Part shown: piece after piece, positions 14,709 through 33,583 of the stretch
Position numbering within the stretch: the stretch's first letter is position 1
How the letters are laid out: every line of letters starts with the position of its first letter
Origin: Vectrevirus PDP21P6
Sequence record: OZ035822.1
DNA length: 44,789 nt
Direction: 5' to 3' (one strand)
The notes under the pieces: model-generated
Database searches by the model: none
Told to the model about the DNA's origin: nothing
The model's input: the letters and a program-made list of their open reading frames with translations, nothing else
Position numbers and translations under genes: made by a program

Positions 14709-14716
14709 TATTAATA

Positions 14717-14781: not shown

Positions 14782-14797
14782 GTCTCACATGTGAGAC
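14782..14797 (+). repeat. 16-bp perfect palindrome GTCTCACATGTGAGAC (copy 1)
   Basis: exact palindrome, 3 bp upstream of promoter 14800. Confidence 0.8.
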
Positions 14798-14963: not shown

Positions 14964-14979
14964 GTCTCACATGTGAGAC
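14964..14979 (+). repeat. 16-bp perfect palindrome GTCTCACATGTGAGAC (copy 2)
   Basis: exact palindrome, 5 bp upstream of promoter 14985. Confidence 0.8.
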
Positions 14980-15164: not shown

Positions 15165-15383
15165 ATGGCTAAATATAGAATTAAGACATGCTTAAACAGT
15201 CACGGGCACGAGTGCTATGTAGTACAGCGTAAAGTGTTATGTTTCTTATGGGTGACTTGCATGATACCTATTGGGTTCACTGATACTGAAGCAATCTTCG
15301 GTACAGAAGATGATGCATATAGGTTCATTGCCAAGCGCAGAAAAGGTGATTCTTATAGACACAGAATTATTAAGGTAAACTAA
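15165..15383 (+). CDS. hypothetical protein
   Basis: 72-aa ORF with GGAG RBS. Confidence 0.5.
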   Translation: MAKYRIKTCLNSHGHECYVVQRKVLCFLWVTCMIPIGFTDTEAIFGTEDDAYRFIAKRRKGDSYRHRIIKVN

Positions 15384-17371
15384 TGGCTATTATTAATAAC
15401 ATTCCGTGCCCTGCCTGCCAGAAGAATGGACACGATAAATCCGGCAATCATCTTATGATATTTGATGACGGTGCTGGCTACTGTAACCGTGGTCACTTCC
15501 ATGATAATGGCAAGCCTTACTACCATAAGCCCGAAGGTGGCATCGAGATAACAGAGTTACCTATCACTGGCAACATCAAATATACACCTTCTCAGTTTAA
15601 AGAGATGGAGAAGGAAGGGAAGATAAGCGACCCTAAGTTGCGCGCCATCGCACTTGGTGGTATGCGTATGAAAGACCGTTGGGAGGTCATGAATGAGCAA
15701 GAAAGGGCAGAGCAAGAAGCAGAGTGGAAACTTGATGTTGAATGGTTCCTCACGCTTAAGCGTAAGAATCTTGTTTCCCGACACATTCGCGGCGACATTT
15801 GCGCATTGTATGATGTACGTGTCGGACATGATGAAGAGGGTAGAGTCTCACGGCATTACTATCCACGCTTCGAGAAAGGTGAACTAGTAGGCGCTAAGTG
15901 TCGCACATTACCTAAAGACTTTAAGTTTGGTCATTTAGGTAAACTATTTGGTATGCAAGATCTTTTCGGTATGAATACTTTGTCTCACGTGTTAGACAAG
16001 GGAAGACGAAAGGATTGCTTGCTTATTGTGGGTGGGGAACTGGATGCACTAGCAGCGCAGCAGATGCTCCTTGATTCTGCCAAGGGTACTAAGTGGGAAG
16101 GGCAGCCTTACCATGTATGGTCTGTCAATAAGGGTGAATCTTGCCTTGAAGAAATTGTGCAGAACCGTGAGCACATAGCCCAATTCAAGAAGATTATTTG
16201 GGGCTTTGATGGGGATGAGGTAGGACAGAAGCAGAACCAACAAGCGGCTCGCCTGTTTCCCGGCAAATCCTACATCCTTGAATACCCTTCTGGTTGCAAA
16301 GATGCCAACAAGGCATTGATGGCTGGTAAGGCCAAAGAATTTGTGGATGCTTGGTTTAATGCAAAGTCATCTGATGAAGTCTTTGGTAGCCAGATTAAAT
16401 CTATCGCATCTCAAAGGGATAAGCTCAAGGCTGCACGTCCAGAACAAGGGCTGTCATGGCCTTGGCCTAAGCTAAACAAGGTAACGCTGGGTATCCGTAA
16501 GAATCAGCTTATCATTGTAGGTGCAGGCTCTGGTGTGGGTAAGACTGAGTTTCTCCGTGAAGTAGTTAAGCATCTCATTGAAGAACACGGTGAATCTGTA
16601 GGCATCATTTCTACAGAAGACCCGATGGTCAAAGTGTCCCGTGCTTTTATCGGCAAATGGATTGATAAGCGTATTGAGTTACCACCAACCAACGACCCGA
16701 AAGAAGATGGATACCGTGAGGTGTTCGACTATACCGAGGAAGAAGCTAACGCCGCCATTGATTATGTAGCCGATACAGGGAAGCTGTTTGTAGCTGACCT
16801 AGAAGGTGACTACTCGATGGAGAAGGTAGAGCAGACCTGCCTTGAGTTTGAGGCTATGGGTATTTCCAATATCATCATTGATAACTTAACGGGGATTAAA
16901 TTAGATGAGCGTGCTTTTGGTGGGAAGGTTGGTGCACTTGATGAATGCGTCAAGCGGATTGGTACTATCAAAGACCGACACCCAGTTACTATATTCCTTG
17001 TATCACACCTTACACGTCCTCCGGCAAACCGTACCCAACACGAAGAAGGTGGCGAGGTTATCCTTTCTGACTTCCGAGGCTCAGGGGCTATCGGATTCTG
17101 GGCATCTTACGCCTTGGGGATTGAGCGTAACACAAGAGCTGAAACGCTTGATGAAAGAACTACCACGTACATTTCATGTGTCAAAGACCGCGACCAAGGT
17201 ATCTACACCGGAACCAAGATCATGCTTAAGGGTGACATTCAGACCGGACGTTTGAGAGAACCTCAAGCCCGTACTAGGTCATTTGATACAGGCGAAGCAA
17301 GGCAACAAGAAGTGCCTGATTTACCGGACACTATAGAAGAGACTAACTTCGATGAAGAAAGTGAGTTCTGA
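15383..17371 (+). CDS. DNA primase/helicase (T7 gp4-like)
   Basis: N-terminal zinc ribbon CPACQKNGHDKSG...YCNRGHFH, Walker A GAGSGVGKT, acidic C-terminal tail ending ...NFDEESEF. Confidence 0.9.
   Translation: MAIINNIPCPACQKNGHDKSGNHLMIFDDGAGYCNRGHFHDNGKPYYHKPEGGIEITELPITGNIKYTPSQFKEMEKEGKISDPKLRAIALGGMRMKDRWEVMNEQERAEQEAEWKLDVEWFLTLKRKNLVSRHIRGDICALYDVRVGHDEEGRVSRHYYPRFEKGELVGAKCRTLPKDFKFGHLGKLFGMQDLFGMNTLSHVLDKGRRKDCLLIVGGELDALAAQQMLLDSAKGTKWEGQPYHVWSVNKGESCLEEIVQNREHIAQFKKIIWGFDGDEVGQKQNQQAARLFPGKSYILEYPSGCKDANKALMAGKAKEFVDAWFNAKSSDEVFGSQIKSIASQRDKLKAARPEQGLSWPWPKLNKVTLGIRKNQLIIVGAGSGVGKTEFLREVVKHLIEEHGESVGIISTEDPMVKVSRAFIGKWIDKRIELPPTNDPKEDGYREVFDYTEEEANAAIDYVADTGKLFVADLEGDYSMEKVEQTCLEFEAMGISNIIIDNLTGIKLDERAFGGKVGALDECVKRIGTIKDRHPVTIFLVSHLTRPPANRTQHEEGGEVILSDFRGSGAIGFWASYALGIERNTRAETLDERTTTYISCVKDRDQGIYTGTKIMLKGDIQTGRLREPQARTRSFDTGEARQQEVPDLPDTIEETNFDEESEF
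17319..17341 (+). promoter_or_regulatory. phage RNAP promoter embedded in 3' end of primase-helicase gene
   Basis: ATTTACCGGACACTATAGAAGAG, +1 G at 17336. Confidence 0.6.
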
Positions 17372-17388: not shown

Positions 17389-17419
17389 GCTTGTCTCACA
17401 TGTGAGACAGGCTCTTATT
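17389..17419 (+). terminator. terminator-like hairpin containing palindrome copy 3
   Basis: GCTTGTCTCACATGTGAGACAGGC (core GTCTCACATGTGAGAC at 17393-17408) followed by TCTTATT. Confidence 0.55.
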
Positions 17420-18614: not shown

Positions 18615-18645
18615 GGTTGTCTCACGTGTGAGACAGCCTTTTCAT
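18615..18645 (+). terminator. terminator-like hairpin containing palindrome copy 4
   Basis: GGTTGTCTCACGTGTGAGACAGCC (core GTCTCACGTGTGAGAC at 18619-18634) followed by CTTTTC. Confidence 0.55.
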
Positions 18646-18666: not shown

Positions 18667-18774
18667 ATGCCACGTGATTATGATTCTGATTGGGACTACT
18701 ATGACTCAATGAATCCAAAACCCGAACGTTCAGATGATTACTACGAAACAGAGGCAATGTATGAAAACTATTGA
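18667..18774 (+). CDS. hypothetical acidic Tyr-rich peptide
   Basis: 35-aa ORF MPRDYDSDWDYYDSMNPKPERSDDYYETEAMYENY with GGAGGT RBS; overlaps DNAP start out of frame. Confidence 0.25.
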   Translation: MPRDYDSDWDYYDSMNPKPERSDDYYETEAMYENY

Positions 18775-21271
18775 TTGGAAGAAGGAAGCAGAAGGGCGCA
18801 TCCTAGTGATGGACGCCGAAGCTAAAGGTTTGCTTGATGCTATCCGCTATGGCCATCGTGAAGATGTACACATCATTTGCTGCATGGATTTGCTTACTAC
18901 AGAGGAGTTCTTATTCTTTGACCCATATGAGATGCGTGACCCTGAAGCAAGAGAACACCTGAAGGAATGGGAAGGACATCAAGATGGAACCTTGGTTGAC
19001 GGTGTTAACTTCCTGAAGCATTGTGAAGCTATTGTGTCACAGAACTTCCTAGGGTATGACGGCCTTCTCTTTGAGAAAGCATTCCCTGATATTTGGAAAG
19101 GCTTTAACTATACCGAGAAGCGCGGCAAGGGCAGACTCCGTGCTGACCTGTGTCCTATCCGTGTTGTCGACACACTGGTAATGAGTCGCCTGTTAAACCC
19201 CGACAGACGTCTTCCTCCGCAAGCTTATGCCAAGGGCATGGGTAACGTTGCCCCTCACTCAATTGAGGCGCACGGCATTCGTATAGGCCGCTATAAGCCG
19301 GAGAACGAAGACTGGTCTAAACTAACCGACCACATGGTTCATCGTGTACGTGAGGACGTGGCAATCGGGCGTGACCTGTTCCTCTGGCTATACAACGGAG
19401 AATGGACGGAGCACAAACGCCGTGGCGTGAACAAACGCACTGGCCTAGGGATTGAGACAGCCTTCCACATGGAGTCCATTGTGGCGCTGGAGATGAGCCG
19501 TCAGGCAGAGCGTGGATTCCGTCTGGATATAGACAAGGCGTTAGCGCGATGCAAAGAACTGGACGCTAAGATTGATGAGACAGTCGCAGCGTTCCGCCCT
19601 CACATGCCTATGCGTATCAAGTCTAAACCTTTTAAACCGGAAGAAAAGAATGAAGTATGCCAACGCGCAAATGAGTATGGAGCTAGCAACAATATACCTA
19701 CTGTCCTTGACCCCTCTCTCTTTCTTCACACAGAGAGACGAGGAGATCGCAAGACAATATGGAGTGTCACTACTAAGTCTGGTGATTGGTCAGCTAGTGT
19801 CAAGAAAGACTTTCCTCACCTTAGAGGAAACCGTAATGACACGCCAAGCATCAAGTGGATTGGCGCTTACTCGCCTGTTACTTTCGAAGAGATTCCCTTG
19901 GGTAACAGGGATACAGTTAAGCAAGTGCTCTATGATTATGGATGGAAAGGTGTTGAATTTAACGATACCGAGCAAGCGCATCTGGATGAGCACGGAGTAT
20001 TACCCAAACCTTGGAGTGGAAAGATAAATGAGAAGTCCCTTACTTTATGGCAGGAAAGAGCCGCACGTGAAGGTAAAACAGTCCCTGATTGGTGCTTGGG
20101 TATCGCTGAATGGTACATTCTCGTTAGCCGTCGCGGACAGATACTCAACCGTGGTGACGTTGAAGCCTTCGATCAAAAAGGGGCGTGGCCCTCGCAGGCT
20201 GGTGTACGAAAGTGTCGTGGCCTTGTACCTGTAGCATTTAACAAGGAGCTAGGAATCAATGCGCAGCAATACTACGAAAGGTATGGATGTTGGCCTACGT
20301 CTGACAAAGATGATGGAGAGTGGCGTGTGCCAGGCAATGCTGTTACTATTGGTACTAATACGTTTCGTATGCGTCATCGTAACATTGTTAATATTCCTTC
20401 CCGTGGGTTGTATCCTCTACGTGATTTATTCATAGCTAGCAAAGGTAAAATGATACTCGGATGTGATGGCGCGGGTCTTGAGCTTCGCATCTTAGCCCAT
20501 TTCATGGGTGATCCTGAGTATATTGATATTGTCTTGAATGGCGATATTCACTCACACAACCAAGCGAAGGCTGGATTGCCCTTACGTGACACTGCGAAAA
20601 CATTTATCTACGCTTTTCTCTACGGGTCTGGCATACCAAACCTTGCCGCTGTATGTGGCATGACTGAAGCACAGATGAAAGAGTGTGTCGCTCGCTTTGA
20701 AGTAGAGCTACCTCACTTAGCTAAGCTTAAGGAGGGAGTGGAATCTGCTGCTTCACAATTTGGGTACATGCACGCTGTAGATGGGCGCTGGGGTCGTGTA
20801 CGTGTTAGTAATGGTGAGATTAAGATTCACACCTGTCTTAATGTACTCCTCCAGATGACCGGTTCTCTCACTATGAAGTACTCAAAAGTGAAAGCACTAG
20901 CTACCATGCGTAAAGAGGGCGTGGCTCTTGATGCTAATGGTAATCCTGCTATGCTTGTCGACTATCACGATGAGTGGCAGATGGAGGTGCCTGAAGACGA
21001 AGTGTTAGAAATTCGCTACTCTATTCCTTCCTCTGAATGGAAAGAAGAAGAGAAAAGGCAGTATCGTGATAGCGAAGGACGCATGTGGTCTGCTCCTAAG
21101 GTGGTTGAAGGTAATCCAAAAGAAGATGAAGAGGTCACTGTACGTCGTCGTTATCATCGTGCTGGTGAAATCCTAGCTGAGTCTATTACTTGGGCAGGTG
21201 AATATCTTAAGCTTCGTATCCGTATGGATGGCGAATATATGCTTGGATATTCATGGGCTGAGACACACTGA
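18761..21271 (+). CDS. DNA polymerase (family A, T7 gp5-like)
   Basis: ATG 18761 with GAGG RBS; motifs DGAGLELRILAHFM, RDTAKTFIYAFLYGSG, YHDEWQMEV. Confidence 0.95.
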   Translation: MKTIDWKKEAEGRILVMDAEAKGLLDAIRYGHREDVHIICCMDLLTTEEFLFFDPYEMRDPEAREHLKEWEGHQDGTLVDGVNFLKHCEAIVSQNFLGYDGLLFEKAFPDIWKGFNYTEKRGKGRLRADLCPIRVVDTLVMSRLLNPDRRLPPQAYAKGMGNVAPHSIEAHGIRIGRYKPENEDWSKLTDHMVHRVREDVAIGRDLFLWLYNGEWTEHKRRGVNKRTGLGIETAFHMESIVALEMSRQAERGFRLDIDKALARCKELDAKIDETVAAFRPHMPMRIKSKPFKPEEKNEVCQRANEYGASNNIPTVLDPSLFLHTERRGDRKTIWSVTTKSGDWSASVKKDFPHLRGNRNDTPSIKWIGAYSPVTFEEIPLGNRDTVKQVLYDYGWKGVEFNDTEQAHLDEHGVLPKPWSGKINEKSLTLWQERAAREGKTVPDWCLGIAEWYILVSRRGQILNRGDVEAFDQKGAWPSQAGVRKCRGLVPVAFNKELGINAQQYYERYGCWPTSDKDDGEWRVPGNAVTIGTNTFRMRHRNIVNIPSRGLYPLRDLFIASKGKMILGCDGAGLELRILAHFMGDPEYIDIVLNGDIHSHNQAKAGLPLRDTAKTFIYAFLYGSGIPNLAAVCGMTEAQMKECVARFEVELPHLAKLKEGVESAASQFGYMHAVDGRWGRVRVSNGEIKIHTCLNVLLQMTGSLTMKYSKVKALATMRKEGVALDANGNPAMLVDYHDEWQMEVPEDEVLEIRYSIPSSEWKEEEKRQYRDSEGRMWSAPKVVEGNPKEDEEVTVRRRYHRAGEILAESITWAGEYLKLRIRMDGEYMLGYSWAETH

Positions 21272-21329: not shown

Positions 21330-21590
21330 ATGATTAAATACACTGCTTATCAGTTAACTAAAGATCGTAAGATAGGTGTTGAGGTTAAAGCTTGGAATGA
21401 AGGACACATCACTGTAGTCATAGAGTGTCGCCAAGATAATGGTATGATATTAAGAAGCTACCGTTGCTTCACCAAATTACGCTGCAAAGATTTAACTGAA
21501 GAATTATTCTTACGTTGTATTGTTGAATCTATTAAGCTTATTAGACCTTACGCTAAGAAAGTTGTAGGCAATGTCACAGTAGTACATTGA
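21330..21590 (+). CDS. hypothetical protein
   Basis: 86-aa ORF. Confidence 0.5.
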   Translation: MIKYTAYQLTKDRKIGVEVKAWNEGHITVVIECRQDNGMILRSYRCFTKLRCKDLTEELFLRCIVESIKLIRPYAKKVVGNVTVVH

Positions 21591-21612
21591 TTTACTGGAC
21601 ACTATAGAAGGA
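21590..21612 (+). promoter_or_regulatory. phage RNAP promoter
   Basis: ATTTACTGGACACTATAGAAGGA, +1 G at 21607, followed by AT-rich CCTAGG-containing leader. Confidence 0.7.
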
Positions 21613-21676
21613 AAGCCTAGGTAACCTAGGTTTATAAGGTAGTATAGGTAATTAAGTAAATATAGGAGATATAAAT

Positions 21677-22054
21677 ATGTCTATGGTAACTACTCTGGTA
21701 TTCGTGGCTCAATACTTTCGTGGCTTGGCGACTAAGTTCAAGAACAAAGCTATTAAGCATATTGAAAACCGCATCTCTGCAATAGAAGACGAGCAAGTCC
21801 AAGTAGAGGAACATCGTAGTTCTCAGATGATTGACCTGCATAACCGTCTGTACAAAGATCGTGATGAGATGCGTCACCGTCATGCGAAGGAAGTTGAAGA
21901 CATGCTTAACCGCCATGCGGAAGAACAAGCTAAGTTGGAAACTACTTTCCATGAGAATAAACGCAGCATTGCATTAGTGCATCAAGCTGCATCTGACAGT
22001 CTGAAGAAAGAGATTGTTATGCTGGAGATTGAACTGGACAACCTGACTAAGTAA
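21677..22054 (+). CDS. hypothetical predicted coiled-coil protein
   Basis: 125-aa ORF with AGGAG RBS. Confidence 0.5.
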   Translation: MSMVTTLVFVAQYFRGLATKFKNKAIKHIENRISAIEDEQVQVEEHRSSQMIDLHNRLYKDRDEMRHRHAKEVEDMLNRHAEEQAKLETTFHENKRSIALVHQAASDSLKKEIVMLEIELDNLTK

Positions 22055-22063
22055 GGAGTTATA

Positions 22064-22360
22064 ATGGAAGAAGTAATTCAAGCTAAACATGTAGGTATCA
22101 TCTTTCGCGATTTAGAGCAGCGTAAAGTTGCAGGTCACACTCGTCTGGCTAAAGAGGAAGACACAGCAATCACTACTGTGGAGCAAGCAGATGCCTATCG
22201 TGGTCCAGAGTTCACTGAAGGTGAAACTTGTCACCAATTGAGCCTGTCACTTTGTGACACTATGGCTAGTGTAAATGTGCAAGAAGTTGAAGACGGTGAA
22301 TGTGTTAGTTACATTTACCCTATCGATACTATTGCACGTATTAAGGTAGTTCATAAGTAA
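22064..22360 (+). CDS. hypothetical protein
   Basis: 98-aa ORF with AAGGAG RBS. Confidence 0.5.
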   Translation: MEEVIQAKHVGIIFRDLEQRKVAGHTRLAKEEDTAITTVEQADAYRGPEFTEGETCHQLSLSLCDTMASVNVQEVEDGECVSYIYPIDTIARIKVVHK

Positions 22361-22381
22361 TTACTGGACACTATAGAACAA
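22359..22381 (+). promoter_or_regulatory. phage RNAP promoter
   Basis: AATTACTGGACACTATAGAACAA, +1 G at 22376; followed by leader hairpin 22383-22402 and TGATTGTGTAGTG box. Confidence 0.65.
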
Positions 22382-22437
22382 TAGGTCGGCTTAGTTCGGC
22401 CTATGATTGTGTAGTGTAACAATAGGAGACTAAATAA

Positions 22438-23244
22438 ATGGCACGTGGTGATTTTGATTTTGGTGCTCAGGTTACTAAAGCTGAAGGTAAAGTATTTAAG
22501 AACCCTGAAGTGGGTGATCATGAAGCAGTAATCTCTGGCATCATTCATGTGGGTTCCTTCCAAGATATCTTTAAGAAAGGCAATACCACTGAAGTTAAGA
22601 AGCCAGCAAACTTTGTTCTTGTTAAGATTGTCCTGATGGGTGACGATGACAAGAATGAAGATGATTCTCGCATGGAACAATGGATGGCTGTGCCTCTGAA
22701 ATCTGGTGACAAGGCAACCTTGACTAAGTTCCTAAATGCAGTTGACCCTAAAGAATTGCTTGGTGGTTTCGATGACTTCATCGGTGAGTGCCTGACTGCA
22801 ACGATGGTTGGATCTGGTGACAAGAATGACGATGGCTCATTCAAGTATGTTAACTGGAAAGGCTTTGGTGGTATGCCGGAAAAGCTGAAGAAACTTGTTA
22901 TTGCTCAGGTTGAAGAAGAAGGTCTGTCTATGACAGGTCATATTACTTTCGACAAGCTGACCAAAGAAATCCTTGATGATATTCCTGCTAACTTGGTGCG
23001 TCAATACTTCCTTAATGAGACACCTCGTGGTAAGAACCTGTCTGTTGCTGGTTCTCACGTAGAAGAAATCATTAAAGCTGCTCGTGAAGAAGACCCTGAG
23101 TGGAAGAAGGCTAAGAAGAAAGATGACGAGGATGCTACTCCAGCTAATCGTAAGTCTCTGGATACTGGCGAGTCTATTCCACAGGAAGTGCCGGAGGCAG
23201 AGGACACTCCTGCACCGGAAATGGATGAAGACGCGGAATACTAA
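22438..23244 (+). CDS. hypothetical protein with acidic C-terminal tail (ssDNA-binding protein candidate)
   Basis: 268 aa, AGGAG RBS; C-terminus ...PAPEMDEDAEY resembles the acidic aromatic-terminated tail of T7 gp2.5. Confidence 0.4.
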   Translation: MARGDFDFGAQVTKAEGKVFKNPEVGDHEAVISGIIHVGSFQDIFKKGNTTEVKKPANFVLVKIVLMGDDDKNEDDSRMEQWMAVPLKSGDKATLTKFLNAVDPKELLGGFDDFIGECLTATMVGSGDKNDDGSFKYVNWKGFGGMPEKLKKLVIAQVEEEGLSMTGHITFDKLTKEILDDIPANLVRQYFLNETPRGKNLSVAGSHVEEIIKAAREEDPEWKKAKKKDDEDATPANRKSLDTGESIPQEVPEAEDTPAPEMDEDAEY

Positions 23245-23250
23245 GGAGGG

Positions 23251-23472
23251 ATGATGAAGGTACAAATCGTAACCCTGCACTGCAAGAAGGGCATTACCAC
23301 CCTTGGCGGAAACACTTTTCACTCCTTCTCTGAAGGGGAGACATACGCCGATCTGCACTACATCTGGCGCGATGGACAGCACGTGGTGAACTATAGCGAC
23401 CCAGCTACGGGGAAACGCCACGGCGTATCACTTCCGGCGCATGACATTGCTCAGGTGAACACAGTTTTATAA
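23251..23472 (+). CDS. hypothetical protein
   Basis: 73-aa ORF with AAGGAGGG RBS. Confidence 0.5.
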   Translation: MMKVQIVTLHCKKGITTLGGNTFHSFSEGETYADLHYIWRDGQHVVNYSDPATGKRHGVSLPAHDIAQVNTVL

Positions 23473-23473
23473 A

Positions 23474-23489
23474 GTCTCACGTGTGAGAC
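23474..23489 (+). repeat. 16-bp perfect palindrome GTCTCACGTGTGAGAC (copy 5)
   Basis: exact palindrome (CACGTG centre variant), 15 bp upstream of promoter 23505. Confidence 0.8.
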
Positions 23490-23504
23490 AACTCGGTGTC
23501 CTGT

Positions 23505-23527
23505 ATTTACTGGACACTATAGAAGAG
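23505..23527 (+). promoter_or_regulatory. phage RNAP promoter
   Basis: ATTTACTGGACACTATAGAAGAG, +1 G at 23522. Confidence 0.7.
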
Positions 23528-23577
23528 AAGAATTTTAATAGGCGATAATGCCACAACCAACAAAAGGAGAATTTAAT

Positions 23578-23949
23578 ATGTTCAAGATTGAAACTATCGT
23601 AAACCGTGTTGTTAAAGGTGCTGCTCTGGTATCCGTTGAGTCTTTCATTATCGTCGATGAAGCTGATCAACTGGTAGCTGGTACTAAGGCTTACGATACC
23701 CGTGAAGAAGCTCAGGCTAAGATTGACAGCATGGGTAACTTCGCTGCTGGTCTGGAGTTCGCTCGTGCTTGCTTCCCTGAGCAGGCTGACAAAGCTCAGA
23801 TTGGTAAGGCTAATATCGTAGCTGAATATCTGGATTGGGTTGCTGCTGGTAAACCAGTGAAAGAAGTTAAGGCTGCTGAAGAAGCTGAAGCTCCAGCAGA
23901 AGAAGTAGCTGCGCCGGAAACTCCGGTAAGCGAAGAGGAAGAGTTTTGA
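23578..23949 (+). CDS. hypothetical protein with acidic C-terminal tail
   Basis: ATG 23578 with AAGGAG RBS; 123 aa ending ...ETPVSEEEEF; own promoter and own terminator. Confidence 0.55.
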   Translation: MFKIETIVNRVVKGAALVSVESFIIVDEADQLVAGTKAYDTREEAQAKIDSMGNFAAGLEFARACFPEQADKAQIGKANIVAEYLDWVAAGKPVKEVKAAEEAEAPAEEVAAPETPVSEEEEF

Positions 23950-24007
23950 TAATAGCAGGTGTTGCCTCTGTTAGTCCTAGCTGACTATCACGCTCACCTC
24001 ATCTAAT

Positions 24008-24041
24008 GCCCTGTCTGCCTTAGTGTAGGCAGGGTCTTTTG
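24008..24041 (+). terminator. T-phi-like intrinsic terminator
   Basis: CCCTGTCTGCC-ttagtg-TAGGCAGGG 10-bp stem with two G-U pairs, then TCTTTT. Confidence 0.65.
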
Positions 24042-24066
24042 CGTAATAGTTATTGGAGAGTGAATT

Positions 24067-24357
24067 ATGCCGACTATTGAAGAACGTTTCCTGATTCACG
24101 TAAGCTTCTCGCCCATACATCTTGGTTATCTTATCACTATTCTATTAGGTGAAGAGATTTATCTGCATAACTACTTAATACCAGAGTATGTATGCCTTCG
24201 AGATAAGATACACCCTGCTAATTGGGCGAAAGAGTGGTTGCGTGAACATGTGCTGAAGGAGTGGCCTACATGCGACCAAACTTCGACTTCGGAGCTACAG
24301 TATCGGAAGACAATAATCTCATCCTGTGGCCAACTGAAGGTAATCGAATCGCTTTAA
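24067..24357 (+). CDS. hypothetical ORF overlapping exonuclease start
   Basis: 96-aa ORF with GGAGAG RBS; overlaps exonuclease by about 88 nt in another frame. Confidence 0.25.
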   Translation: MPTIEERFLIHVSFSPIHLGYLITILLGEEIYLHNYLIPEYVCLRDKIHPANWAKEWLREHVLKEWPTCDQTSTSELQYRKTIISSCGQLKVIESL

Positions 24358-25295
24358 TAGACGCTGATATGTTACCTTACATCGTCGGGTATACAATCAG
24401 TGACATGACTTATGTACGAGCTACAACTCGTGTTAAGTCAGGACAAGTCCCATCAATCAAAGATACCCCTGAGTGTAAGCAAGCGTGTGACCGTGTGAAC
24501 TCCTTGCTTAACTCTTGGGTGTATGCAGCAGAGTGTGATGCTGCTAAGTTATTCATGACGAAGTCAGAAGCTAACTTCCGTGTCCGCCTAGCATTCACCA
24601 AACCTTATAAAGGTCAACGTAAGACCGAGAAGCCTCCATTCTTCTATGAAATGCGAGAGCATCTCTTAGAGGTTCACGGTGCAATCTTGGCAGATGGTGA
24701 GGAAGCTGATGACCTCATGAGTATTGCACAATGGGACAGCCATCGCCGCTTCCAGCAAGATACAGGTAACGAGTTCCCTATCGGTAGTCCAGAGCATAGA
24801 GCATTCTCTGACACTTGCATCGTTTCCTTGGATAAGGATTTGATGATTGTTCCCGGTTGGCATCTACAGCCGGGAGGTGAGAAGAAATGGGTAGAGCCTA
24901 TGGGTTGGCTTGAGCTACGCCGCAAGGCTAATGGTCAAGTGAAAGACCTTAAAGGCGCTGGCCTCATGTTCCATTATGCACAGATGATTATCGGTGATGA
25001 TATTGATAATTACGCTGGCATACCCGGACGTGGTGCTAAATACGCCTATGATCTTCTCAAAGATTGTAAGACAGAGAAAGAGTTGTACATGGCAGTGCTT
25101 GGTGCATACAAGGCTAAGTTCGGACATGGACAAGTTAAGATTAAGAATTACCGAGGTGGTTATCGTATCGGCAAGGCTTTTGACCTGATGCTTGAATGTG
25201 GTCGCCTAGCACACATGGCAAGATTCAAGGGTGATATATGGCGAGCCGATAAGAACCCAATCTTGTGGGGAGATGAAGGATGGCTACAAAGCTAA
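24270..25295 (+). CDS. 5'-3' exonuclease (T7 gp6-like)
   Basis: ATG 24270 with AAGGAG RBS; acidic metal-binding motifs ALIDADMLPYIVGY and ILADGEEADDLMSIA. Confidence 0.85.
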   Translation: MRPNFDFGATVSEDNNLILWPTEGNRIALIDADMLPYIVGYTISDMTYVRATTRVKSGQVPSIKDTPECKQACDRVNSLLNSWVYAAECDAAKLFMTKSEANFRVRLAFTKPYKGQRKTEKPPFFYEMREHLLEVHGAILADGEEADDLMSIAQWDSHRRFQQDTGNEFPIGSPEHRAFSDTCIVSLDKDLMIVPGWHLQPGGEKKWVEPMGWLELRRKANGQVKDLKGAGLMFHYAQMIIGDDIDNYAGIPGRGAKYAYDLLKDCKTEKELYMAVLGAYKAKFGHGQVKIKNYRGGYRIGKAFDLMLECGRLAHMARFKGDIWRADKNPILWGDEGWLQS

Positions 25296-25684
25296 AATCT
25301 TCTGAAGTTGCTGCCTATAAGAAAGAATTGCTAGAGAAGCAGGGTTGGAAGTGCCCTATTTGTGGAGCACCGCTTAAGGCAGTAGCTGAGATTAACCGAG
25401 TGTTAGACCATTGTCATCGCAGAGGTTATTGCAGGGCAGTACTCTGTCGTGGATGCAATGGTGGTATCGGGAAGATAGAAAACTTAGTAAAGACTTATTG
25501 TAAGGCTGGAGATAATGAGTACTTCATTATCAAGACACTGCGGAATATCGCAGATTATCTAGACTTACATAGTAAGCCTCAGACTGATAAGATTTATCAC
25601 AAACATCAAACGGAGGCAGAGAAGCGCGAGGCTAAGAACCGTAAGGCACGCCTTGCTTATGCAAGAAAGAAAACAGGAGGTTAA
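25280..25684 (+). CDS. endonuclease VII-like Holliday junction resolvase
   Basis: CPICG...LDHCH...CRGCNG Cys/His arrangement as in the T4 endonuclease VII family; 134 aa. Confidence 0.55.
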   Translation: MATKLKSSEVAAYKKELLEKQGWKCPICGAPLKAVAEINRVLDHCHRRGYCRAVLCRGCNGGIGKIENLVKTYCKAGDNEYFIIKTLRNIADYLDLHSKPQTDKIYHKHQTEAEKREAKNRKARLAYARKKTGG

Positions 25685-25685
25685 C

Positions 25686-26126
25686 GTGGCTTGCATAGAT
25701 CACGGACATTATAAATGTCTGAATAAACTAGGATATTACCGCTCATGGCACAAGCCTAGTAAGAAGTTACAACTGCTTCATAGAGTGGTCTATGCTGAGC
25801 ATCATGGGTTATCTCTTGAAGCAATAGAAGGTCTAGTGGTCAGACATACTTGTGACAATGCAAGATGTATTAATCCACAGCATCTTATAATTGGTACGCA
25901 GCAGGATAACATACAGGATATGGTAAAAAGAAACCGTCATGCACGTATGATAGGAGATACTAATCCTAGGGCTGTACTTACGTGGGATGTAGTGCGAGAT
26001 ATTCGTGCCAATTATATTAAGGGTGCAAAATCTGGCCCATATTCACGTACAGTCTTGGCAGAGAAGTATGGTGTCTCTGCTGCCACTATTAGTGATATTA
26101 TAGCTGGAAGGAGTTGGAAAGAATAA
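25686..26126 (+). CDS. HNH homing endonuclease (second copy, different subfamily)
   Basis: GTG 25686 with AGGAGG RBS; motif HRVVYAEHHG...VRHTCDNARCINPQHLIIGTQQDN plus C-terminal HTH-like segment. Confidence 0.75.
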   Translation: MACIDHGHYKCLNKLGYYRSWHKPSKKLQLLHRVVYAEHHGLSLEAIEGLVVRHTCDNARCINPQHLIIGTQQDNIQDMVKRNRHARMIGDTNPRAVLTWDVVRDIRANYIKGAKSGPYSRTVLAEKYGVSAATISDIIAGRSWKE

Positions 26127-27133
26127 TGGGTAAGATTCGAAACTTGTTTACTAATAAGGAGGTAGAAGAAGCAGTTGAAAGTGCAAAGCGGGACAACGGC
26201 ACTATCAACTATCGCCTAATGGCGTCTATTCTCTCAGATAACACGCATGGAACTACAGTTACAAGACAACTTGCAAAGTATTGGGCCAAACAGTTTGAAA
26301 AGCGGAAGAAGAATGGCGAGGCTTATGAAACCTTGGCTATTGCGAACCGCGCTATCAAAGAAGAACGTAAGCTCAGGACTCCTGACCGCTACGAGGATTT
26401 GGCTATTGTACCATTGCCTGACTCGCCTCATCGAAGTGTACTGGTAATACCTGACACCCATGCACCTTATGAGCATCCAGATACATTAGAGTTTCTGGCA
26501 GCGGTGGCAGCACGTTACCGTCCAGACACTGTAGTTCATCTTGGTGATGAGGCGGACAAGCACGCACTTTCATTCCATACGTCAGATCCTAATCTGGATT
26601 CTGCTGGTATGGAGTTAGAGAAGGCTCGTATCTTCATGCGTAAATTACATAAGATGTTCCCTGTAATGCGCATCTGCCACTCTAATCATGGCTCCTTACA
26701 TTTCCGTAAGGCCAGTGCTCATGGCATCCCTGTGCAATACTTGCGCACCTACCGTGAAGTCTTCTTCCCGCAGGGAGGTGGCGACCAGTGGGACTGGCAG
26801 CATACGCATGTCCTTGAGTTACCTAATGGAGAACAGGTGGCATTCAAGCATCAACCTGCTGGTTCTGTCCTAGCAGATGCAGCACACGAGCGTATGAACC
26901 TTGTGTGTGGTCATTTGCATGGTAAGATGTCTGTTGAGTATGCACGTAATACACATGAACAGTATTGGGCTGTGCAAGGTGGCTGTCTGATTGATGAGTC
27001 ATCTCGTGCATTTGCCTATGGTCGTGAGTCTAAATACAAGCCAGCATTAGGTTGTGTGGTCATTCTGGAAGGTGTGCCTCATATTGTCCCGATGCAAACC
27101 AATAGCAACAATCGCTGGATTGGTAAGATTTAG
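26126..27133 (+). CDS. calcineurin-like metallophosphoesterase
   Basis: motifs VIPDTHAPY, GDEADKH, SNHG, GHLHG; ATG overlaps upstream stop. Confidence 0.75.
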   Translation: MGKIRNLFTNKEVEEAVESAKRDNGTINYRLMASILSDNTHGTTVTRQLAKYWAKQFEKRKKNGEAYETLAIANRAIKEERKLRTPDRYEDLAIVPLPDSPHRSVLVIPDTHAPYEHPDTLEFLAAVAARYRPDTVVHLGDEADKHALSFHTSDPNLDSAGMELEKARIFMRKLHKMFPVMRICHSNHGSLHFRKASAHGIPVQYLRTYREVFFPQGGGDQWDWQHTHVLELPNGEQVAFKHQPAGSVLADAAHERMNLVCGHLHGKMSVEYARNTHEQYWAVQGGCLIDESSRAFAYGRESKYKPALGCVVILEGVPHIVPMQTNSNNRWIGKI

Positions 27134-27673: not shown

Positions 27674-27847
27674 ATGGAAGGTAAGTTGTATAGAGGTTAC
27701 TTTGGTAACTTATATAAGATAAGTGCTCGCGGTTTTGTATTAGTATCTTATGATGAAGGTGCAATGTGGCACTTAAGTTCCTATGGTTCTGACTTAGCAT
27801 TCTTTAAAGATGCAATATACTCTGGTGCTGTGAGGGTAGTGGAATGA
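27674..27847 (+). CDS. hypothetical protein
   Basis: 57-aa ORF with GAGGAT RBS, stop overlaps ligase start. Confidence 0.4.
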   Translation: MEGKLYRGYFGNLYKISARGFVLVSYDEGAMWHLSSYGSDLAFFKDAIYSGAVRVVE

Positions 27848-28791
27848 ACATCTTCCAATTTCTAGGTCTTCCAGAAGAACACCGCAATCACCCGTTCATG
27901 CTGGTGAAACATCGCGGTGAAGTTCCTGAGAAGAAATTAACCTTTCCATGTTATGCACAGGTGAAACGAGATGGAATATTCAGTGCTGTTGTGGTGCGTA
28001 ATGATGGTGTTGTTGCCATCTTTGGTCGTACTGGTAAGAAGCTCGCAAATGTTGAAGCCTTGGAAAAGACATTTAGTGTATTTCCTGTCGGGTTGTATCT
28101 TGGTGAGTTGCAATCTATGGCTGTTGATGTTTATCTTGAAGCTCTGTCAGGAGTGGTAAACCCTAATCGTACAGAGCCACTTGACTTCATAGGCCAGCAG
28201 ATTAAAGACAACCTGTATATCGACTTCTTCGATATGTTAACTATTAAGGCATTCCATGATGGATTCACTGATGTTTCTTATCTCAAACGTTACGATGCTT
28301 TACATCGTCGCATCGGCGCTCATCTTAGCGGGTACAACGCTATCCTTCCTATTACTCCTTGCCATAATGAGCGAGAAGTTGAAGCGTTTGCGCAAGAGCA
28401 GATAGACGCAGGCCGAGAGGGTGCTGTATTCAAACTGGACTGCGATTATGAAGCAGGCCACAAAGGTTATCGTCAGACTAAAGAAGTCCGTAAGGTAACT
28501 TATGACCTTACTTGTATTGGCTTTGAAGAAGGTAAAGGTAAGTACAAAGGTAAGGTAGCTAACCTCATTTTCAAATGGAAAGGAGGCAAGACAATCAAAG
28601 CTATGTTAGGTAAAGGGTGGACTCATGCAGATGCAGAACAGATGTTCCACGACATTAAACATGGTGGACGATTGAATGTCATTGGTAAAATCTTTGAAGT
28701 CAAAGGTCTTCAGGATTCAAGCAAGGGCAACATTCGTCTGCCCAAAGCGGGAGAATTAAGACATGACAAAGATGAACCAGATTTCTTTTGA
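27844..28791 (+). CDS. ATP-dependent DNA ligase
   Basis: adenylation motif I KRDG in CYAQVKRDGIFSAVV; 315 aa. Confidence 0.85.
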   Translation: MNIFQFLGLPEEHRNHPFMLVKHRGEVPEKKLTFPCYAQVKRDGIFSAVVVRNDGVVAIFGRTGKKLANVEALEKTFSVFPVGLYLGELQSMAVDVYLEALSGVVNPNRTEPLDFIGQQIKDNLYIDFFDMLTIKAFHDGFTDVSYLKRYDALHRRIGAHLSGYNAILPITPCHNEREVEAFAQEQIDAGREGAVFKLDCDYEAGHKGYRQTKEVRKVTYDLTCIGFEEGKGKYKGKVANLIFKWKGGKTIKAMLGKGWTHADAEQMFHDIKHGGRLNVIGKIFEVKGLQDSSKGNIRLPKAGELRHDKDEPDFF

Positions 28792-32260: not shown

Positions 32261-32266
32261 TCAGTA

Positions 32267-33549: not shown

Positions 33550-33583
33550 GCCCTATCTACCTTGCGTAGGTAGGGTTCTTTTT
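33550..33583 (+). terminator. T-phi-like intrinsic terminator after capsid gene
   Basis: CCCTATCTACC-ttgcg-TAGGTAGGG then TTCTTTTT; near-identical design to 24008-24041. Confidence 0.7.

What the first reader, a model, noticed from the sequence alone, without database searches (positions are those of the whole stretch)
23505..24041. Self-contained expression unit: promoter, 123-aa gene and T-phi-like terminator
Gene 23578-23949 has its own consensus promoter, a strong AAGGAG RBS and a dedicated terminator whose hairpin is nearly identical in design to the one after the major capsid gene. This implies very high expression during infection of a protein of unknown function.
Basis: seen in the sequence. 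Interest (0 to 1): 0.45.

Follow-up and report, generated by a model that had tools for sequence, protein, structure and literature searches.

The report
Highly expressed acidic-tailed phage replication protein
A K1-5/SP6-type phage gives a small, uncharacterised acidic protein (K1-5 gene 18) its own perfect phage promoter, a strong ribosome site, the best codon usage in the genome and a terminator, and the protein ends in the same kind of acidic, phenylalanine-tipped tail that phage T7 replication proteins use to dock on the DNA polymerase.

Summary
The window is a circularly permuted Vectrevirus (K1-5/SP6-like) genome, and the gene is K1-5 gene 18, which is SP6 gene 20. It has a perfect 23-bp phage promoter (23505-23527), an AAGGAG site 8 nt before the ATG, a 123-aa ORF, and an 11-bp hairpin plus U-run (24008-24041). 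That hairpin closely resembles the capsid-gene terminator. The capsid hairpin is the SP6 "t5" terminator, measured at about 85% efficiency with SP6 RNA polymerase.

High expression is supported only indirectly. Gene 18 has the highest codon adaptation of 37 genes, above the capsid gene. The promoter-gene-terminator cassette recurs in all 22 close relatives and in distant relatives whose signals have unrelated sequences. The unit is not fully self-contained, because two upstream promoters also read into it.

The cassette is already annotated in relatives, so it is not new. The protein is annotated as hypothetical in every listed record and has no match in sequence families or solved structures. 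It has a conserved ~95-aa domain, a variable Ala/Pro/Glu linker and an acidic tip ending in Phe. In this phage only the helicase-primase, an OB-fold SSB-like protein, the ligase and gp18 end this way. My best guess (about 40%) is an abundant replisome-associated protein that docks through this tail.

The parts
23474..23489 (+). 16-bp palindrome GTCTCACGTGTGAGAC. It sits 2 nt after the gene 17 stop codon and 15 nt upstream of the promoter. It is one of six dispersed copies; its role is unknown, and it marks the upstream edge of the unit.
   Evidence: 6 exact copies against 0 expected; it is present at the same place in relatives, with compensatory arm changes.
23505..23527 (+). Promoter for the phage single-subunit RNA polymerase, a perfect match to the genome's own consensus. 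The transcription start is inferred at G 23522, by analogy with the SP6 promoter ATTTAGGTGACACTATA-G(+1).
   Evidence: Conserved upstream of the gene in all 22 relatives, with each phage's own specificity bases.
23522..23577 (+). 56-nt A/U-rich leader with little predicted structure.
   Evidence: -4.8 kcal/mol, z = -1.6.
23564..23569 (+). Shine-Dalgarno sequence AAGGAG, 8 nt before the ATG.
   Evidence: Conserved in relatives.
23578..23949 (+). Gene 18 (K1-5 numbering), equal to SP6 gene 20. It encodes 123 aa, pI 4.33, with 25 Asp+Glu against 12 Lys+Arg. Three stop codons follow in frame (TGA TAA TAG).
   Evidence: It matches phrog_4429, function unknown.
23578..23862 (+). Globular domain, residues 1-95: a long beta-hairpin (3-26) followed by three helices (42-51, 53-65, 71-89).
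   Evidence: AlphaFold2 mean pLDDT 83 over the whole protein; the 10-residue blocks covering residues 1-90 average 81-94. 87-97% identical among close relatives. Near-invariant K37, A45, G58, K77, A78, N79, A82, W87 and G91 across the family.
23863..23928 (+). Linker rich in Ala, Pro and Glu, variable in length and predicted disordered (residues 96-117).
   Evidence: pLDDT 53-60. Insertions and deletions occur here even among close relatives.
23929..23946 (+). C-terminal tip SEEEEF-COOH.
   Evidence: S118, E120-E122 and F123 are invariant, and E119 nearly so, among close relatives. An acidic tip with Phe at or next to the end is kept in most of the distant relatives aligned and in Era103, phiA318, Nerthus, L027, L030, L032 and L033.
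23950..24005 (+). ~55-nt spacer specific to the K1-5 clade, able to form an imperfect hairpin. It is absent in SP6 and others, where the terminator directly follows the stop codon.
   Evidence: Unique in the window. No Rfam match.
24008..24035 (+). Terminator hairpin: 11 pairs, 6-nt loop.
   Evidence: Present downstream of the gene in all 22 relatives; in L022 it follows an inserted HNH ORF.
24036..24041 (+). U-run CUUUUG, the inferred 3' end of a transcript of about 520 nt.
21590..21612 (+). Upstream phage promoter (2 mismatches). Its transcripts should also end at 24041.
   Evidence: One search lists only weak terminator-like hairpins (none resembling the 24008 or 33550 hairpins) on the + strand in between.
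22359..22381 (+). Upstream phage promoter (3 mismatches) in front of gene 16. Its transcripts should also end at 24041.
22438..23244 (+). Gene 16: an OB-fold, SSB-like protein ending EMDEDAEY. It has the third-highest codon adaptation index (0.479).
   Evidence: AlphaFold2 pLDDT 80. The best fold matches are the SSB-like protein PrgE (E = 1.5e-4), RPA, bacterial SSBs and PriB. The [DE]x[YF] C-terminus is conserved.
17348..17368 (+). C-terminal tail FDEESEF of the helicase-primase.
28765..28788 (+). C-terminal tail DKDEPDFF of the DNA ligase.
   Evidence: Weak, below-cutoff NCBIfam matches to ATP-dependent DNA ligase models; homologues in Era103, phiA318 and Nerthus are annotated as DNA ligase.
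33550..33576 (+). Capsid-gene terminator hairpin, the sister of the gene 18 hairpin. It is identical to the hairpin of the SP6 t5 terminator.
   Evidence: About 85% termination with SP6 RNA polymerase.

Best explanation
Shown or strongly supported. Gene 18 is the promoter-proximal gene of a short, roughly 520-nt phage-polymerase transcript running from 23522 to about 24041. It is also the last gene of longer 3'-coterminal transcripts that start at 21590 and 22359. All of these end at a class I (hairpin plus U-run) terminator built like the capsid-gene terminator. Together with the perfect promoter, the open leader, the AAGGAG site and the best codon usage in the genome, this should make gp18 one of the most abundant phage proteins of the DNA-metabolism period. 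The leaky terminator then lowers transcription of the catalytic genes downstream (gene 19, exonuclease, endonuclease VII and others), which have no strong promoter of their own before 27128.

Inferred. gp18 is a component or regulator of the phage replisome. It is a compact ~95-aa domain that carries, on a flexible acidic Ala/Pro/Glu linker, a tip ending in Glu-Phe-COOH. The phage's helicase-primase, its OB-fold SSB-like gp16 and its ligase carry the same kind of tail. This is also the device by which T7 gp4 and gp2.5 dock on the DNA polymerase. I propose that gp18 uses this tip to occupy the same docking site or sites on a replisome partner. The DNA polymerase is the most likely partner; the exonuclease or the ssDNA-binding groove of gp16 are alternatives. 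Its abundance would let it act stoichiometrically. What the globular domain does is unknown.
For: Transcription unit.
- Codon adaptation index 0.659, the top of 37 genes. Extreme use of GCT, GGT, CGT and CTG.
- There is a step from high index values upstream of the terminator (genes 15, 15.5, 16, 18 = 0.45-0.66) to low values downstream (0.17-0.28).
- The capsid-type hairpin is validated experimentally in SP6.
- The cassette is conserved in 22 of 22 close relatives. It is also conserved in distant ones (L027-L033, Era103, phiA318, Nerthus) that use unrelated promoter and terminator sequences. A promoter is annotated there in phiA318 and a terminator in R4596.

Tail:
- SEEEEF is essentially invariant, and an acidic tip with Phe at or next to the end persists down to 25-30% identity.
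- Only 4 of 44 proteins in the window end in an acidic stretch plus an aromatic residue, against 0.25 expected (P about 1e-4). The other three are the helicase-primase, the OB-fold gp16 and the ligase.
- The same four-protein pattern recurs in Era103, phiA318 and L032; Nerthus and L027 show it with the aromatic residue at or near the end, and L030 shows it for the three proteins available.
- T7 gp2.5 ends ...DEDGDF and gp4 ends ...SNDTDF. These tails bind T7 DNA polymerase, and the terminal Phe of gp2.5 is essential (PMC12339929, PMC4124056 and bioRxiv 10.64898/2026.05.20.726333).

Context: the gene always lies between the DNA polymerase / gp16 and the exonuclease / endonuclease VII genes.
Against: - No expression data and no binding data exist.
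- The T7 polymerase segment that contains KWKRR aligns to a gap in this phage's polymerase, and the thumb region that holds the T7 thioredoxin-binding domain is unalignable. From my own knowledge, KWKRR is the front basic patch that receives the tails. Any receptor is therefore not homologous to the T7 one.
- A very abundant protein competing for the same site as the helicase and SSB tails could harm replication unless its affinity or its role is special.
- The codon index uses an E. coli weight table that I recalled from memory, although the raw codon counts show the same thing.
- The terminator's U-run has only four U's.
Confidence: 0.4

Rival explanations
1. Host-directed decoy or mimic. 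gp18 is made in large amounts to titrate host proteins. Its acidic tip ending in Phe would imitate the C-terminal tip of the host SSB (DDDIPF) and block host proteins that dock on SSB, such as PriA, RecQ, ExoI and the chi subunit. Alternatively the whole acidic protein acts as a DNA mimic against nucleases, like T7 Ocr or gp5.9.
For: - The protein has pI 4.33 and a net charge of about -13.
- The architecture (globular domain, disordered linker, acidic tip with terminal Phe) is that of bacterial SSB. From my own knowledge, the SSB tip is DDDIPF.
- High abundance suits titration of many targets.
- The gene sits just before the exonuclease gene, where T7 has its RecBCD inhibitor gp5.9.
- One gp16-like protein ends NDDVPF, which shows that the SSB-type tip exists in this group.
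Against: - The tip is Glu-Phe, as in T7 gp4 and gp2.5, not Pro-Phe as in bacterial SSB.
- The phage's own replication proteins carry the same tip, which points to a phage receptor.
- SP6 already has an annotated Ocr-like early gene.
- There is no fold similarity to Ocr, gp5.9 or other mimics.
- RecBCD is scarce and would not require such high expression.
Confidence: 0.2
2. Functional analogue of T7 gp5.5 or gp2. gp18 would be an abundant middle protein that neutralises an abundant host nucleoid protein such as H-NS, or the host RNA polymerase. The tail would contribute only solubility or charge.
For: - gp18 lies in the same genomic neighbourhood as T7 genes 5.3-5.9, between the DNA polymerase and the exonuclease.
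- From my own knowledge, T7 gp5.5 is described as highly expressed and binds H-NS.
- High abundance fits titration of a protein present at about 10^4 copies per cell.
Against: - There is no sequence similarity to any T7 protein (best E = 0.3 in a set of 31 proteins), and no DUF2675 hit.
- This reading does not explain why the terminal Phe and the acidic tip are kept down to 25-30% identity.
- T7 gp5.5 has a low codon index (0.325) with the same table, so the parallel in expression signals is weak.
Confidence: 0.12
3. The cassette mainly serves transcript-level control and gp18 is not exceptionally abundant. The hairpin would be an attenuator or insulator that sets the level of the downstream nuclease genes, and the codon pattern would be a by-product of an Ala/Glu-rich composition.
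For: - Downstream genes lack a strong promoter until 27128 (4 mismatches) and have low codon indices.
- The hairpin also ends transcripts that start at two upstream promoters.
Against: - The codon bias is in synonymous choice, not in amino-acid composition: 22 of 24 Ala are GCT against 42% elsewhere, and 4 of 4 Leu are CTG against 19% elsewhere.
- The perfect promoter lies directly in front of this gene and is conserved there. One relative has the promoter duplicated in tandem.
Confidence: 0.1
4. gp18 is a virion or assembly protein, for example a decoration or internal protein, and is made in capsid-like amounts because it is structural.
For: The expression signals and the terminator design match those of the capsid gene.
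Against: - The gene lies in the DNA-metabolism block, far from the morphogenesis genes, in every relative examined.
- The protein is small and acidic with a disordered tail.
- No record listed annotates it as structural; one listed record (OR594181) shows head-protein labels under the match, which I take to be mis-registered annotation.
Confidence: 0.03

Closest known systems
K1-5 gene 18 (YP_654119) / SP6 gene 20 (AAP48759) with their flanking signals
   Same: These are orthologues, 92-99% identical in protein sequence, with the same promoter position, AAGGAG site and terminator hairpin. A terminator is annotated at this place in phage R4596. The UAB_Phi78 paper states that a Rho-independent terminator follows a gene of unknown function at the same position as in SP6 (PMC4837284).
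   Different: Nothing essential differs. The window and its closest kin carry an extra ~55-nt spacer between the stop codon and the hairpin. No function is assigned in any record.
T7 phi10 - gene 10 - T-phi, and the SP6 capsid promoter - gene 32 - t5 unit
   Same: Both combine a strong phage-polymerase promoter, a strong ribosome site, a highly codon-adapted gene, and a class I hairpin-plus-U-run terminator that is leaky enough to let downstream genes be expressed.
   Different: The product here is a small non-structural acidic protein in the DNA-metabolism region. T7 has no terminator inside its class II region. The hairpin has no sequence similarity to T7 T-phi.
Acidic C-terminal tails of T7 gp2.5 (SSB) and gp4 (helicase-primase)
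   Same: A disordered acidic tail ends in Asp/Glu-Phe-COOH on proteins of the replication module: T7 has ...DEDGDF and ...SNDTDF, and gp18 has ...SEEEEF. In T7 these tails dock on basic patches of the DNA polymerase.
   Different: gp18 is neither an OB-fold protein nor a helicase. The T7 polymerase segment that I take to be the receptor patch has no counterpart in this phage's polymerase. Binding is untested.
Bacterial SSB C-terminal tip (E. coli ...DDDIPF)
   Same: The architecture is the same: a folded domain, a flexible linker and an acidic tip with a terminal Phe that serves as a docking peptide. This comparison rests on my own knowledge. A gp16-like protein in relative L027 ends NDDVPF.
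   Different: The residue before the last is Glu, not Pro. The folded domain is not an OB fold. There is no evidence for ssDNA binding.
T7 gp5.5 (H-NS inhibitor) and gp5.9 (RecBCD inhibitor)
   Same: These are small proteins encoded between the DNA polymerase and exonuclease genes. gp5.9 is acidic.
   Different: There is no sequence or fold similarity. Neither T7 protein has the acidic Phe tail.

Membership tests
SP6/K1-5-type promoter for the phage single-subunit RNA polymerase | Match to the genome's own ~23-bp consensus, including the CACTATAG core and the initiating GAAG. | tested here: met
   The match is perfect (23 of 23). This is one of two perfect copies among 12 sites, all on the + strand.
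SP6/K1-5-type promoter for the phage single-subunit RNA polymerase | Conserved position in relatives, with the specificity bases (-8 to -12) following each phage's own polymerase. | tested here: met
   All 22 relatives keep a promoter 55-63 nt before the ATG. The specificity bases are ACTGG in the K1-5 type, AGGGG in the SP6 type, and GTGTT and AGAGA in two others. Distant phages use their own motifs.
SP6/K1-5-type promoter for the phage single-subunit RNA polymerase | Initiation by the phage polymerase at this site. | not testable with these tools
   This needs in vitro transcription or 5'-end mapping.
Class I intrinsic terminator for phage RNA polymerases (T-phi / SP6 t5 type) | A stable G+C-rich hairpin immediately followed by a U-rich run. 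| tested here: met
   11 pairs, -18.3 kcal/mol, z = -4.1, followed by CUUUUG. The U-run is shorter than in t5 (UCUUUUGUUU).
Class I intrinsic terminator for phage RNA polymerases (T-phi / SP6 t5 type) | Resemblance to an experimentally validated terminator of the same polymerase type. | tested here: met
   The capsid hairpin at 33550-33576 is identical to the SP6 t5 hairpin. The gene 18 hairpin differs from it by 3 stem bases, corresponding to one compensatory pair and one G-U/A-U change.
Class I intrinsic terminator for phage RNA polymerases (T-phi / SP6 t5 type) | Measured termination at this site. | not testable with these tools
   Only t5 has been measured, at 85-86% with SP6 RNA polymerase.
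T7 gp2.5/gp4-type acidic C-terminal docking tail | A disordered, acidic C-terminal segment. | tested here: met
   Residues 96-123 have pLDDT 53-60 and include 10 Glu. The segment varies in length among relatives.
T7 gp2.5/gp4-type acidic C-terminal docking tail | A C-terminal aromatic residue (Phe), conserved. | tested here: met
   F123 is invariant in close relatives. Most distant relatives have Phe as the last residue and a few as the penultimate or a slightly internal residue.
T7 gp2.5/gp4-type acidic C-terminal docking tail | The tail is carried by proteins of the replication module of the same phage. | tested here: met
   The helicase-primase, OB-fold gp16 and ligase share this ending: 4 of 44 proteins against 0.25 expected.
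T7 gp2.5/gp4-type acidic C-terminal docking tail | A receptor homologous to the T7 front basic patch or thioredoxin-binding-domain patch on the DNA polymerase. | tested here: not met
   T7 residues ~580-593 (VAGEQQVKWKRRWI) align to a gap, and T7 residues 265-404 have no alignable counterpart. The patch residue numbers are from my own knowledge.
T7 gp2.5/gp4-type acidic C-terminal docking tail | Physical binding of the tail to the polymerase or another partner. | not testable with these tools
OB-fold single-stranded DNA-binding proteins | An OB-fold beta-barrel. | tested here: not met
   The gp18 model is a beta-hairpin plus three helices with no SSB among its fold matches. The neighbouring gp16 does match OB-fold SSB-like proteins.
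DNA-mimic proteins (Ocr, gp5.9 and the like) | Strongly acidic surface. | tested here: met
   gp18 has pI 4.33, with 25 Asp+Glu against 12 Lys+Arg.
DNA-mimic proteins (Ocr, gp5.9 and the like) | Structural or sequence similarity to a known DNA mimic. | tested here: not met
   There is no significant fold or sequence match to any mimic. The charge array on the fold itself was not analysed.
T7 gp5.5 family (DUF2675) | Sequence membership. | tested here: not met
   There is no Pfam hit. The family profile scores E = 4.1 against T7 gp5.5.

The most novel reading that the evidence does not exclude
gp18 would be a so-far unrecognised, stoichiometrically abundant fourth member of a set of Glu-Phe-tailed proteins (helicase-primase, SSB-like gp16, ligase, gp18) that all plug into one docking site of the SP6-type replisome. 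It would be a dedicated adaptor or gatekeeper that controls which partner occupies the DNA polymerase, or it would supply the processivity or exchange function that thioredoxin and the gp4 tails supply in T7. It is conserved across Molineuxvirinae and Colwellvirinae.
Probability: 0.2. Interest if true: 0.65.

Novelty: already known. Interest (0 to 1): 0.38.

Why it matters
The cassette itself is an ordinary feature of SP6/K1-5-type genomes and is already annotated there. What it highlights is more useful. The most strongly expression-optimised gene of a widespread phage group has no known function, even though the group includes the source of SP6 RNA polymerase and several therapeutic K1 and Klebsiella phages. 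Its conserved T7-like docking tail gives a concrete, cheap hypothesis to test: tail deletion, peptide competition and pull-downs. If gp18 proves to be a replisome component, it would show how T7-like replisomes that lack the thioredoxin-binding domain are organised. In passing, the gene 18 terminator is a second natural terminator for SP6-type polymerases, with a different U-run, which could be compared with t5 in in-vitro transcription work.

Tried and rejected
Searches on gp18 that found nothing useful:
- Pfam, NCBIfam and PDB sequence searches, with the single sequence and with the family profile.
- The afdb50 structure library was unavailable.
- The family profile against 31 T7 proteins gave nothing. 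The top "hit", T7 gp2 at 2 bits, is noise.
- Rfam on the whole window and on the region gave no family.

Structures I checked and dismissed:
- The small GGC...GCC stem in the leader is not significant (z = -1.6).
- The stem that encloses the gene 19 start codon is not significant (z = -1.1).

Ideas I dropped:
- I considered that the gp18 tip tracks the helicase tip within each phage (EVEF/EVEY in L030, EEFE/DEFT in L027). With more genomes the pattern is only a shared motif, not convincing covariation.
- I considered ongoing gene conversion between the two terminators. Within the SP6/K1-5 clade each keeps its own stable version, although distant lineages again show look-alike pairs.

Literature:
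- Searches for RNA-seq or proteomics of SP6-like phages found nothing.
- Of the two 2004 genome papers, Dobbins et al. is not held in the library and Scholl et al. was not looked up; neither was read.

Full report
**What the window is.**
The 1-kb region around the finding is 97-98% identical to Escherichia phages LL11 and K1-5 (genus Vectrevirus, Molineuxvirinae, Autographiviridae). The window is a circularly permuted copy of such a genome of about 44.8 kb. The gene at 23578-23949 is K1-5 gene 18 (YP_654119), which is SP6 gene 20 in the Dobbins numbering. It is labelled only by its gene number or as a hypothetical protein. It lies after the DNA polymerase gene (18734-21271) and genes 15, 15.5, 16 and 17. 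It lies before gene 19, the exonuclease, endonuclease VII and the rest of the DNA-metabolism block.

**Checking the observation.**
Every element is present.
- The 23-mer ATTTACTGGACACTATAGAAGAG at 23505-23527 is the genome's own promoter consensus. With up to 3 mismatches it occurs 8 times, always on the + strand, against none in shuffles.
- The core GGACACTATAG gives 12 sites. Only 4333 and 23505 are perfect, and the capsid promoter at 32266 has one mismatch.
- AAGGAG lies 8 nt before the ATG.
- The predicted leader is almost unstructured (-4.8 kcal/mol).
- The hairpin at 24008-24035 has 11 pairs, -18.3 kcal/mol and z = -4.1, and is followed by CUUUUG.
- The capsid gene (32337-33542) is followed by a hairpin of the same build at 33550-33576. 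The arms are GCCCUGUCUGC and GCCCUAUCUAC, differing by one compensatory G-C to A-U pair and one G-U to A-U change.
- A third good terminator, after the RNA polymerase gene at 14716-14739, has an unrelated sequence.

**Experimental anchor.**
The template list of a 2024 NAR study of phage polymerase termination gives the SP6 "t5" terminator as CCTATGCCCTATCTACCTTGCGTAGGTAGGGTTCTTTTGTTT. This is the same hairpin as window 33550-33576. That terminator stopped SP6 RNA polymerase with 85-86% efficiency and also worked with T7 RNA polymerase (PMC11347151). The gene 18 copy has a shorter U-run, so its efficiency is uncertain.

**Is the gene really built for high expression?**
A codon adaptation index puts gene 18 first of 37 genes at 0.659. 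I computed it with E. coli high-expression weights recalled from memory. Other values are: capsid 0.550; gene 16, 0.479; genes 15.5 and 15, 0.46 and 0.45; scaffold 0.44. The five genes just after the terminator score 0.17-0.28.

The raw codon counts do not depend on the table. In gene 18, 22 of 24 Ala are GCT (42% elsewhere), 6 of 6 Gly are GGT, 3 of 3 Arg are CGT and 4 of 4 Leu are CTG (19% elsewhere). This is the same direction as the capsid gene and more extreme. As a control, the same table ranks gp2.5 (the SSB) first in the T7 region examined, the 42-aa gp1.1 second and the capsid gene 10A third.

I found no transcriptome or proteome data for an SP6-like phage. High expression therefore remains an inference, though one supported by several independent lines.

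**The unit is conserved but not isolated.**
Among 22 IMG/VR relatives, all keep a promoter 55-63 nt before the ATG, the AAGGAG site and the terminator. The promoter's specificity bases follow each phage's own type. In one genome (L022) an HNH-endonuclease ORF has been inserted between gene 18 and the hairpin, which is still present.

The window and its nearest kin carry an extra spacer of about 55 nt (23950-24005) that can form an imperfect hairpin. In SP6 the terminator follows the stop codon directly.

Distant homologues, at 30-50% protein identity, come from metagenomic contigs and from Erwinia phage Era103, Vibrio phage phiA318 and Pseudomonas phage Nerthus. Where enough flanking sequence is available they have a phage-type promoter upstream, and all but two short contigs show a strong hairpin plus U-run right after the stop codon. 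These signals have entirely different sequences. One homologue has the promoter duplicated in tandem (L031). GenBank annotates a promoter there in phiA318 and a terminator in R4596.

In L032 and phiA318 the gene 18 and capsid terminators again resemble each other within the genome. In L032 they are GCCCACTC...GAGTGGGCTTATTTTTGTTG in both places. Within the SP6/K1-5 clade, by contrast, each of the two keeps its own stable version.

In the window, only weak terminator-like hairpins, none resembling the two strong ones, lie between the promoters at 21590 and 22359 and gene 18. Gene 18 should therefore be covered by three nested, 3'-coterminal transcripts. The hairpin also acts as an attenuator for the downstream enzymes, whose next promoter-like site (27128) has four mismatches.

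**The protein.**
gp18 has 123 aa, pI 4.33, and 25 acidic against 12 basic residues. It matches only PHROG 4429, of unknown function. It has no hit in Pfam, NCBIfam or PDB sequences.

Homologues are numerous but confined to this phage group. There are 203 clusters at 90% identity, 26 clusters at 50% identity in 1.8 billion representatives, and 212 GenBank phage records from Escherichia, Klebsiella, Salmonella, Proteus, Erwinia, Vibrio, Pseudomonas, Marinomonas, Aeromonas and other hosts. The listed records label it hypothetical, unknown or by gene number only, apart from one whose annotation appears mis-registered.

The gene always lies between the DNA polymerase / gene 16 and the exonuclease / endonuclease VII.

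**The tail.**
Alignment shows three parts:
- an almost invariant domain;
- an Ala/Pro/Glu linker of variable length;
- an essentially invariant tip, SEEEEF-COOH.

In the distant relatives the tip changes but usually keeps an acidic residue or two followed by Phe at the very end, or occasionally one or a few residues earlier. Examples are EEETF, EEVDF, EGETF, ADEAF, EEVEF, GEESF, EDETF, DDENF, TGEDF, PEETF and EEFE.

In the window only four of 44 proteins end in an acidic stretch plus an aromatic residue, against 0.25 expected (P about 1e-4). They are:
- the helicase-primase (FDEESEF);
- gp16 (EMDEDAEY);
- gp18;
- the 315-aa protein at 27844-28791 (DKDEPDFF). This protein is a DNA ligase on the evidence of weak, below-cutoff NCBIfam ligase matches and of ligase annotation on its homologues in relatives.

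I modelled gp16 (pLDDT 80). Its best fold matches are the SSB-like protein PrgE (E = 1.5e-4, probability 1.0), RPA subunits, bacterial SSBs and PriB, so it is the likely phage SSB. The same endings recur on all four proteins in Era103, phiA318 and L032. In Nerthus and L027 the aromatic residue sits at or near the end. L030 shows the pattern for the three proteins available on its contig.

In T7, read from the GenBank record, gp2.5 ends ...EEADEDGDF and gp4 ends ...DWSNDTDF. These tails bind basic patches of the T7 DNA polymerase, compete with each other and stimulate the gene 6 exonuclease. The terminal Phe of gp2.5 is essential.

**Most likely mechanism.**
I commit to the following reading. 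gp18 is an abundant, non-OB, replisome-associated protein that docks through its Glu-Phe tip on the same site or sites that receive the helicase, SSB and ligase tails. The DNA polymerase is the most likely partner. I give this part about 40%, and the transcription-unit description about 85%.

The main weaknesses are these:
- The T7 polymerase segment containing KWKRR aligns to a gap here, and the thumb region that holds the thioredoxin-binding domain is unalignable. From my own knowledge, KWKRR is the front basic patch. A receptor, if it exists, is therefore not the T7 one.
- A highly abundant competitor for a docking site needs a rationale.

**Rivals.**
- A host-directed decoy that imitates the SSB tip, or a DNA mimic (20%).
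- An analogue of T7 gp5.5 or gp2 that titrates a nucleoid protein or the host RNA polymerase (12%).
- A mainly regulatory cassette without exceptional protein abundance (10%).
- A structural role (3%).

SP6 already has an annotated Ocr-like early gene, which weakens the anti-restriction idea.

**Novelty and value.**
The promoter-gene-terminator arrangement is an orthologue of what is present and partly annotated in K1-5, SP6, R4596 and phiA318. A terminator after a gene of unknown function at the SP6 position is mentioned in the UAB_Phi78 paper. I could not read the two 2004 genome papers: Dobbins et al. is not held and Scholl et al. was not looked up. I therefore rate the finding as already known.

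The added value from this analysis has four parts:
- the quantitative case for top-level expression;
- the link to the measured SP6 t5 terminator;
- the conservation of the cassette across two subfamilies;
- the recognition of a T7-type docking tail shared by four replication-module proteins, which turns "unknown function" into a testable hypothesis.

**Seen in passing.**
A perfect 16-bp palindrome, GTCTCAC(A/G)TGTGAGAC, occurs six times in intergenic DNA, against none expected. One copy lies 15 nt upstream of the gene 18 promoter.

SP6 has copies at the orthologous places, but with arms GTCTAAC/GTTGGAC. That pairing includes a T:G mismatch, which is a good pair only in RNA. Other clades have GTCCAAC/GTTGGAC or GTCTACC/GGTAGAC. 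Era103, phiA318 and Nerthus keep GTCTCAC/GTGAGAC.

All copies within a genome change together and do so by compensatory substitutions. This points to a sequence-specific trans-acting factor, probably acting on RNA. The exact strings are not in the searchable literature. I did not resolve what the element is.

Noticed in passing
window 14782-14797, 14964-14979, 17393-17408, 18619-18634, 23474-23489, 40424-40439; SP6 locus L073 6093, 6264, 8547, 9383, 14255, 30569: Six exact intergenic copies of the palindrome GTCTCAC(A/G)TGTGAGAC are present, against 0 expected. Three sit just upstream of phage promoters, and three have flanks that extend the stem and end in a U-rich run. SP6 has copies at the orthologous sites, with arms changed in concert to GTCTAAC/GTTGGAC (a G-U wobble). 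Other clades show further compensatory variants. This suggests a sequence-specific RNA hairpin recognised by a trans-acting factor. The strings were not found in the searchable literature.
   Followed up: partly
window 22438-23244 (gene 16): The 268-aa protein that relatives annotate as hypothetical models as an OB-fold protein. Its best matches are the SSB-like PrgE, RPA, bacterial SSBs and PriB. It has a conserved acidic C-terminus ending in Tyr or Phe, its own promoter (22359) and the third-highest codon adaptation index. It is the likely phage SSB.
   Followed up: yes
window 27844-28791 (ligase) and 15383-17371 (helicase-primase); L070, L071, L072, L027, L032: The DNA ligase also ends in an acidic stretch plus Phe or Tyr (DKDEPDFF here; PDY, PDF, GDF and GDY in relatives), as does the helicase-primase. 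T7 ligase has no such ending. A tail-mediated recruitment of ligase to the replisome would be new.
   Followed up: partly
window 21590-24041 versus 24067-27133: Codon adaptation steps down sharply across the gene 18 terminator. Genes 15, 15.5, 16 and 18 score 0.45-0.66 and are served by three promoters within 2 kb. Gene 19, the exonuclease, endonuclease VII and the next two genes score 0.17-0.28 and have no good promoter.
   Followed up: partly
L032 10369-10450 and 19852-19900; L071 (phiA318) after 10806 and after 20471: In distant lineages the gene 18 terminator and the capsid terminator again look alike within one genome (for example GCCCACTC...GAGTGGGCTTATTTTTGTTG twice in L032). Their sequences nevertheless differ from the K1-5/SP6 pair. 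This points to co-adaptation to each phage's polymerase or to sequence exchange between the two sites. The phiA318 paper did not report the gene 18 terminator.
   Followed up: partly
window 23950-24005: A spacer of about 55 nt lies between the triple stop codon and the terminator. It is present only in the K1-5 / LL11 clade and can form an imperfect hairpin (the 101-nt region folds at -32.4 kcal/mol, z = -2.9). It is unique in the genome and has no Rfam match. It could be an RNA processing or stability element.
   Followed up: partly
locus L022 (IMGVR_UViG_3300045988_000861), about 450 nt after gene 18: An HNH-type homing-endonuclease ORF is inserted between gene 18 and its terminator. It would be co-transcribed with the highly expressed gene.
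   Followed up: no
locus L031, 1-128: A distant gene 18 homologue is preceded by two tandem copies of a promoter-like 25-mer (TAATAAACCCCTGTTATAGAAGAGA).
   Followed up: no
window 18734-21271 (DNA polymerase) versus T7 gene 5: The T7 segment VAGEQQVKWKRRWI aligns to a gap, and the T7 thumb region (residues 265-404, which holds the thioredoxin-binding domain) corresponds to an unalignable 230-aa stretch. This polymerase must therefore organise processivity and tail docking differently from T7.
   Followed up: partly
window 24041-24072: The sequence GCGUAAUAGUUAUUGGAGAGUGAAUUAUGC can pair so that the gene 19 start codon lies in a stem and its GGAG site in the loop. The sequence is nearly invariant in relatives, but the fold is not significant against shuffles (z = -1.1).
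   Followed up: partly
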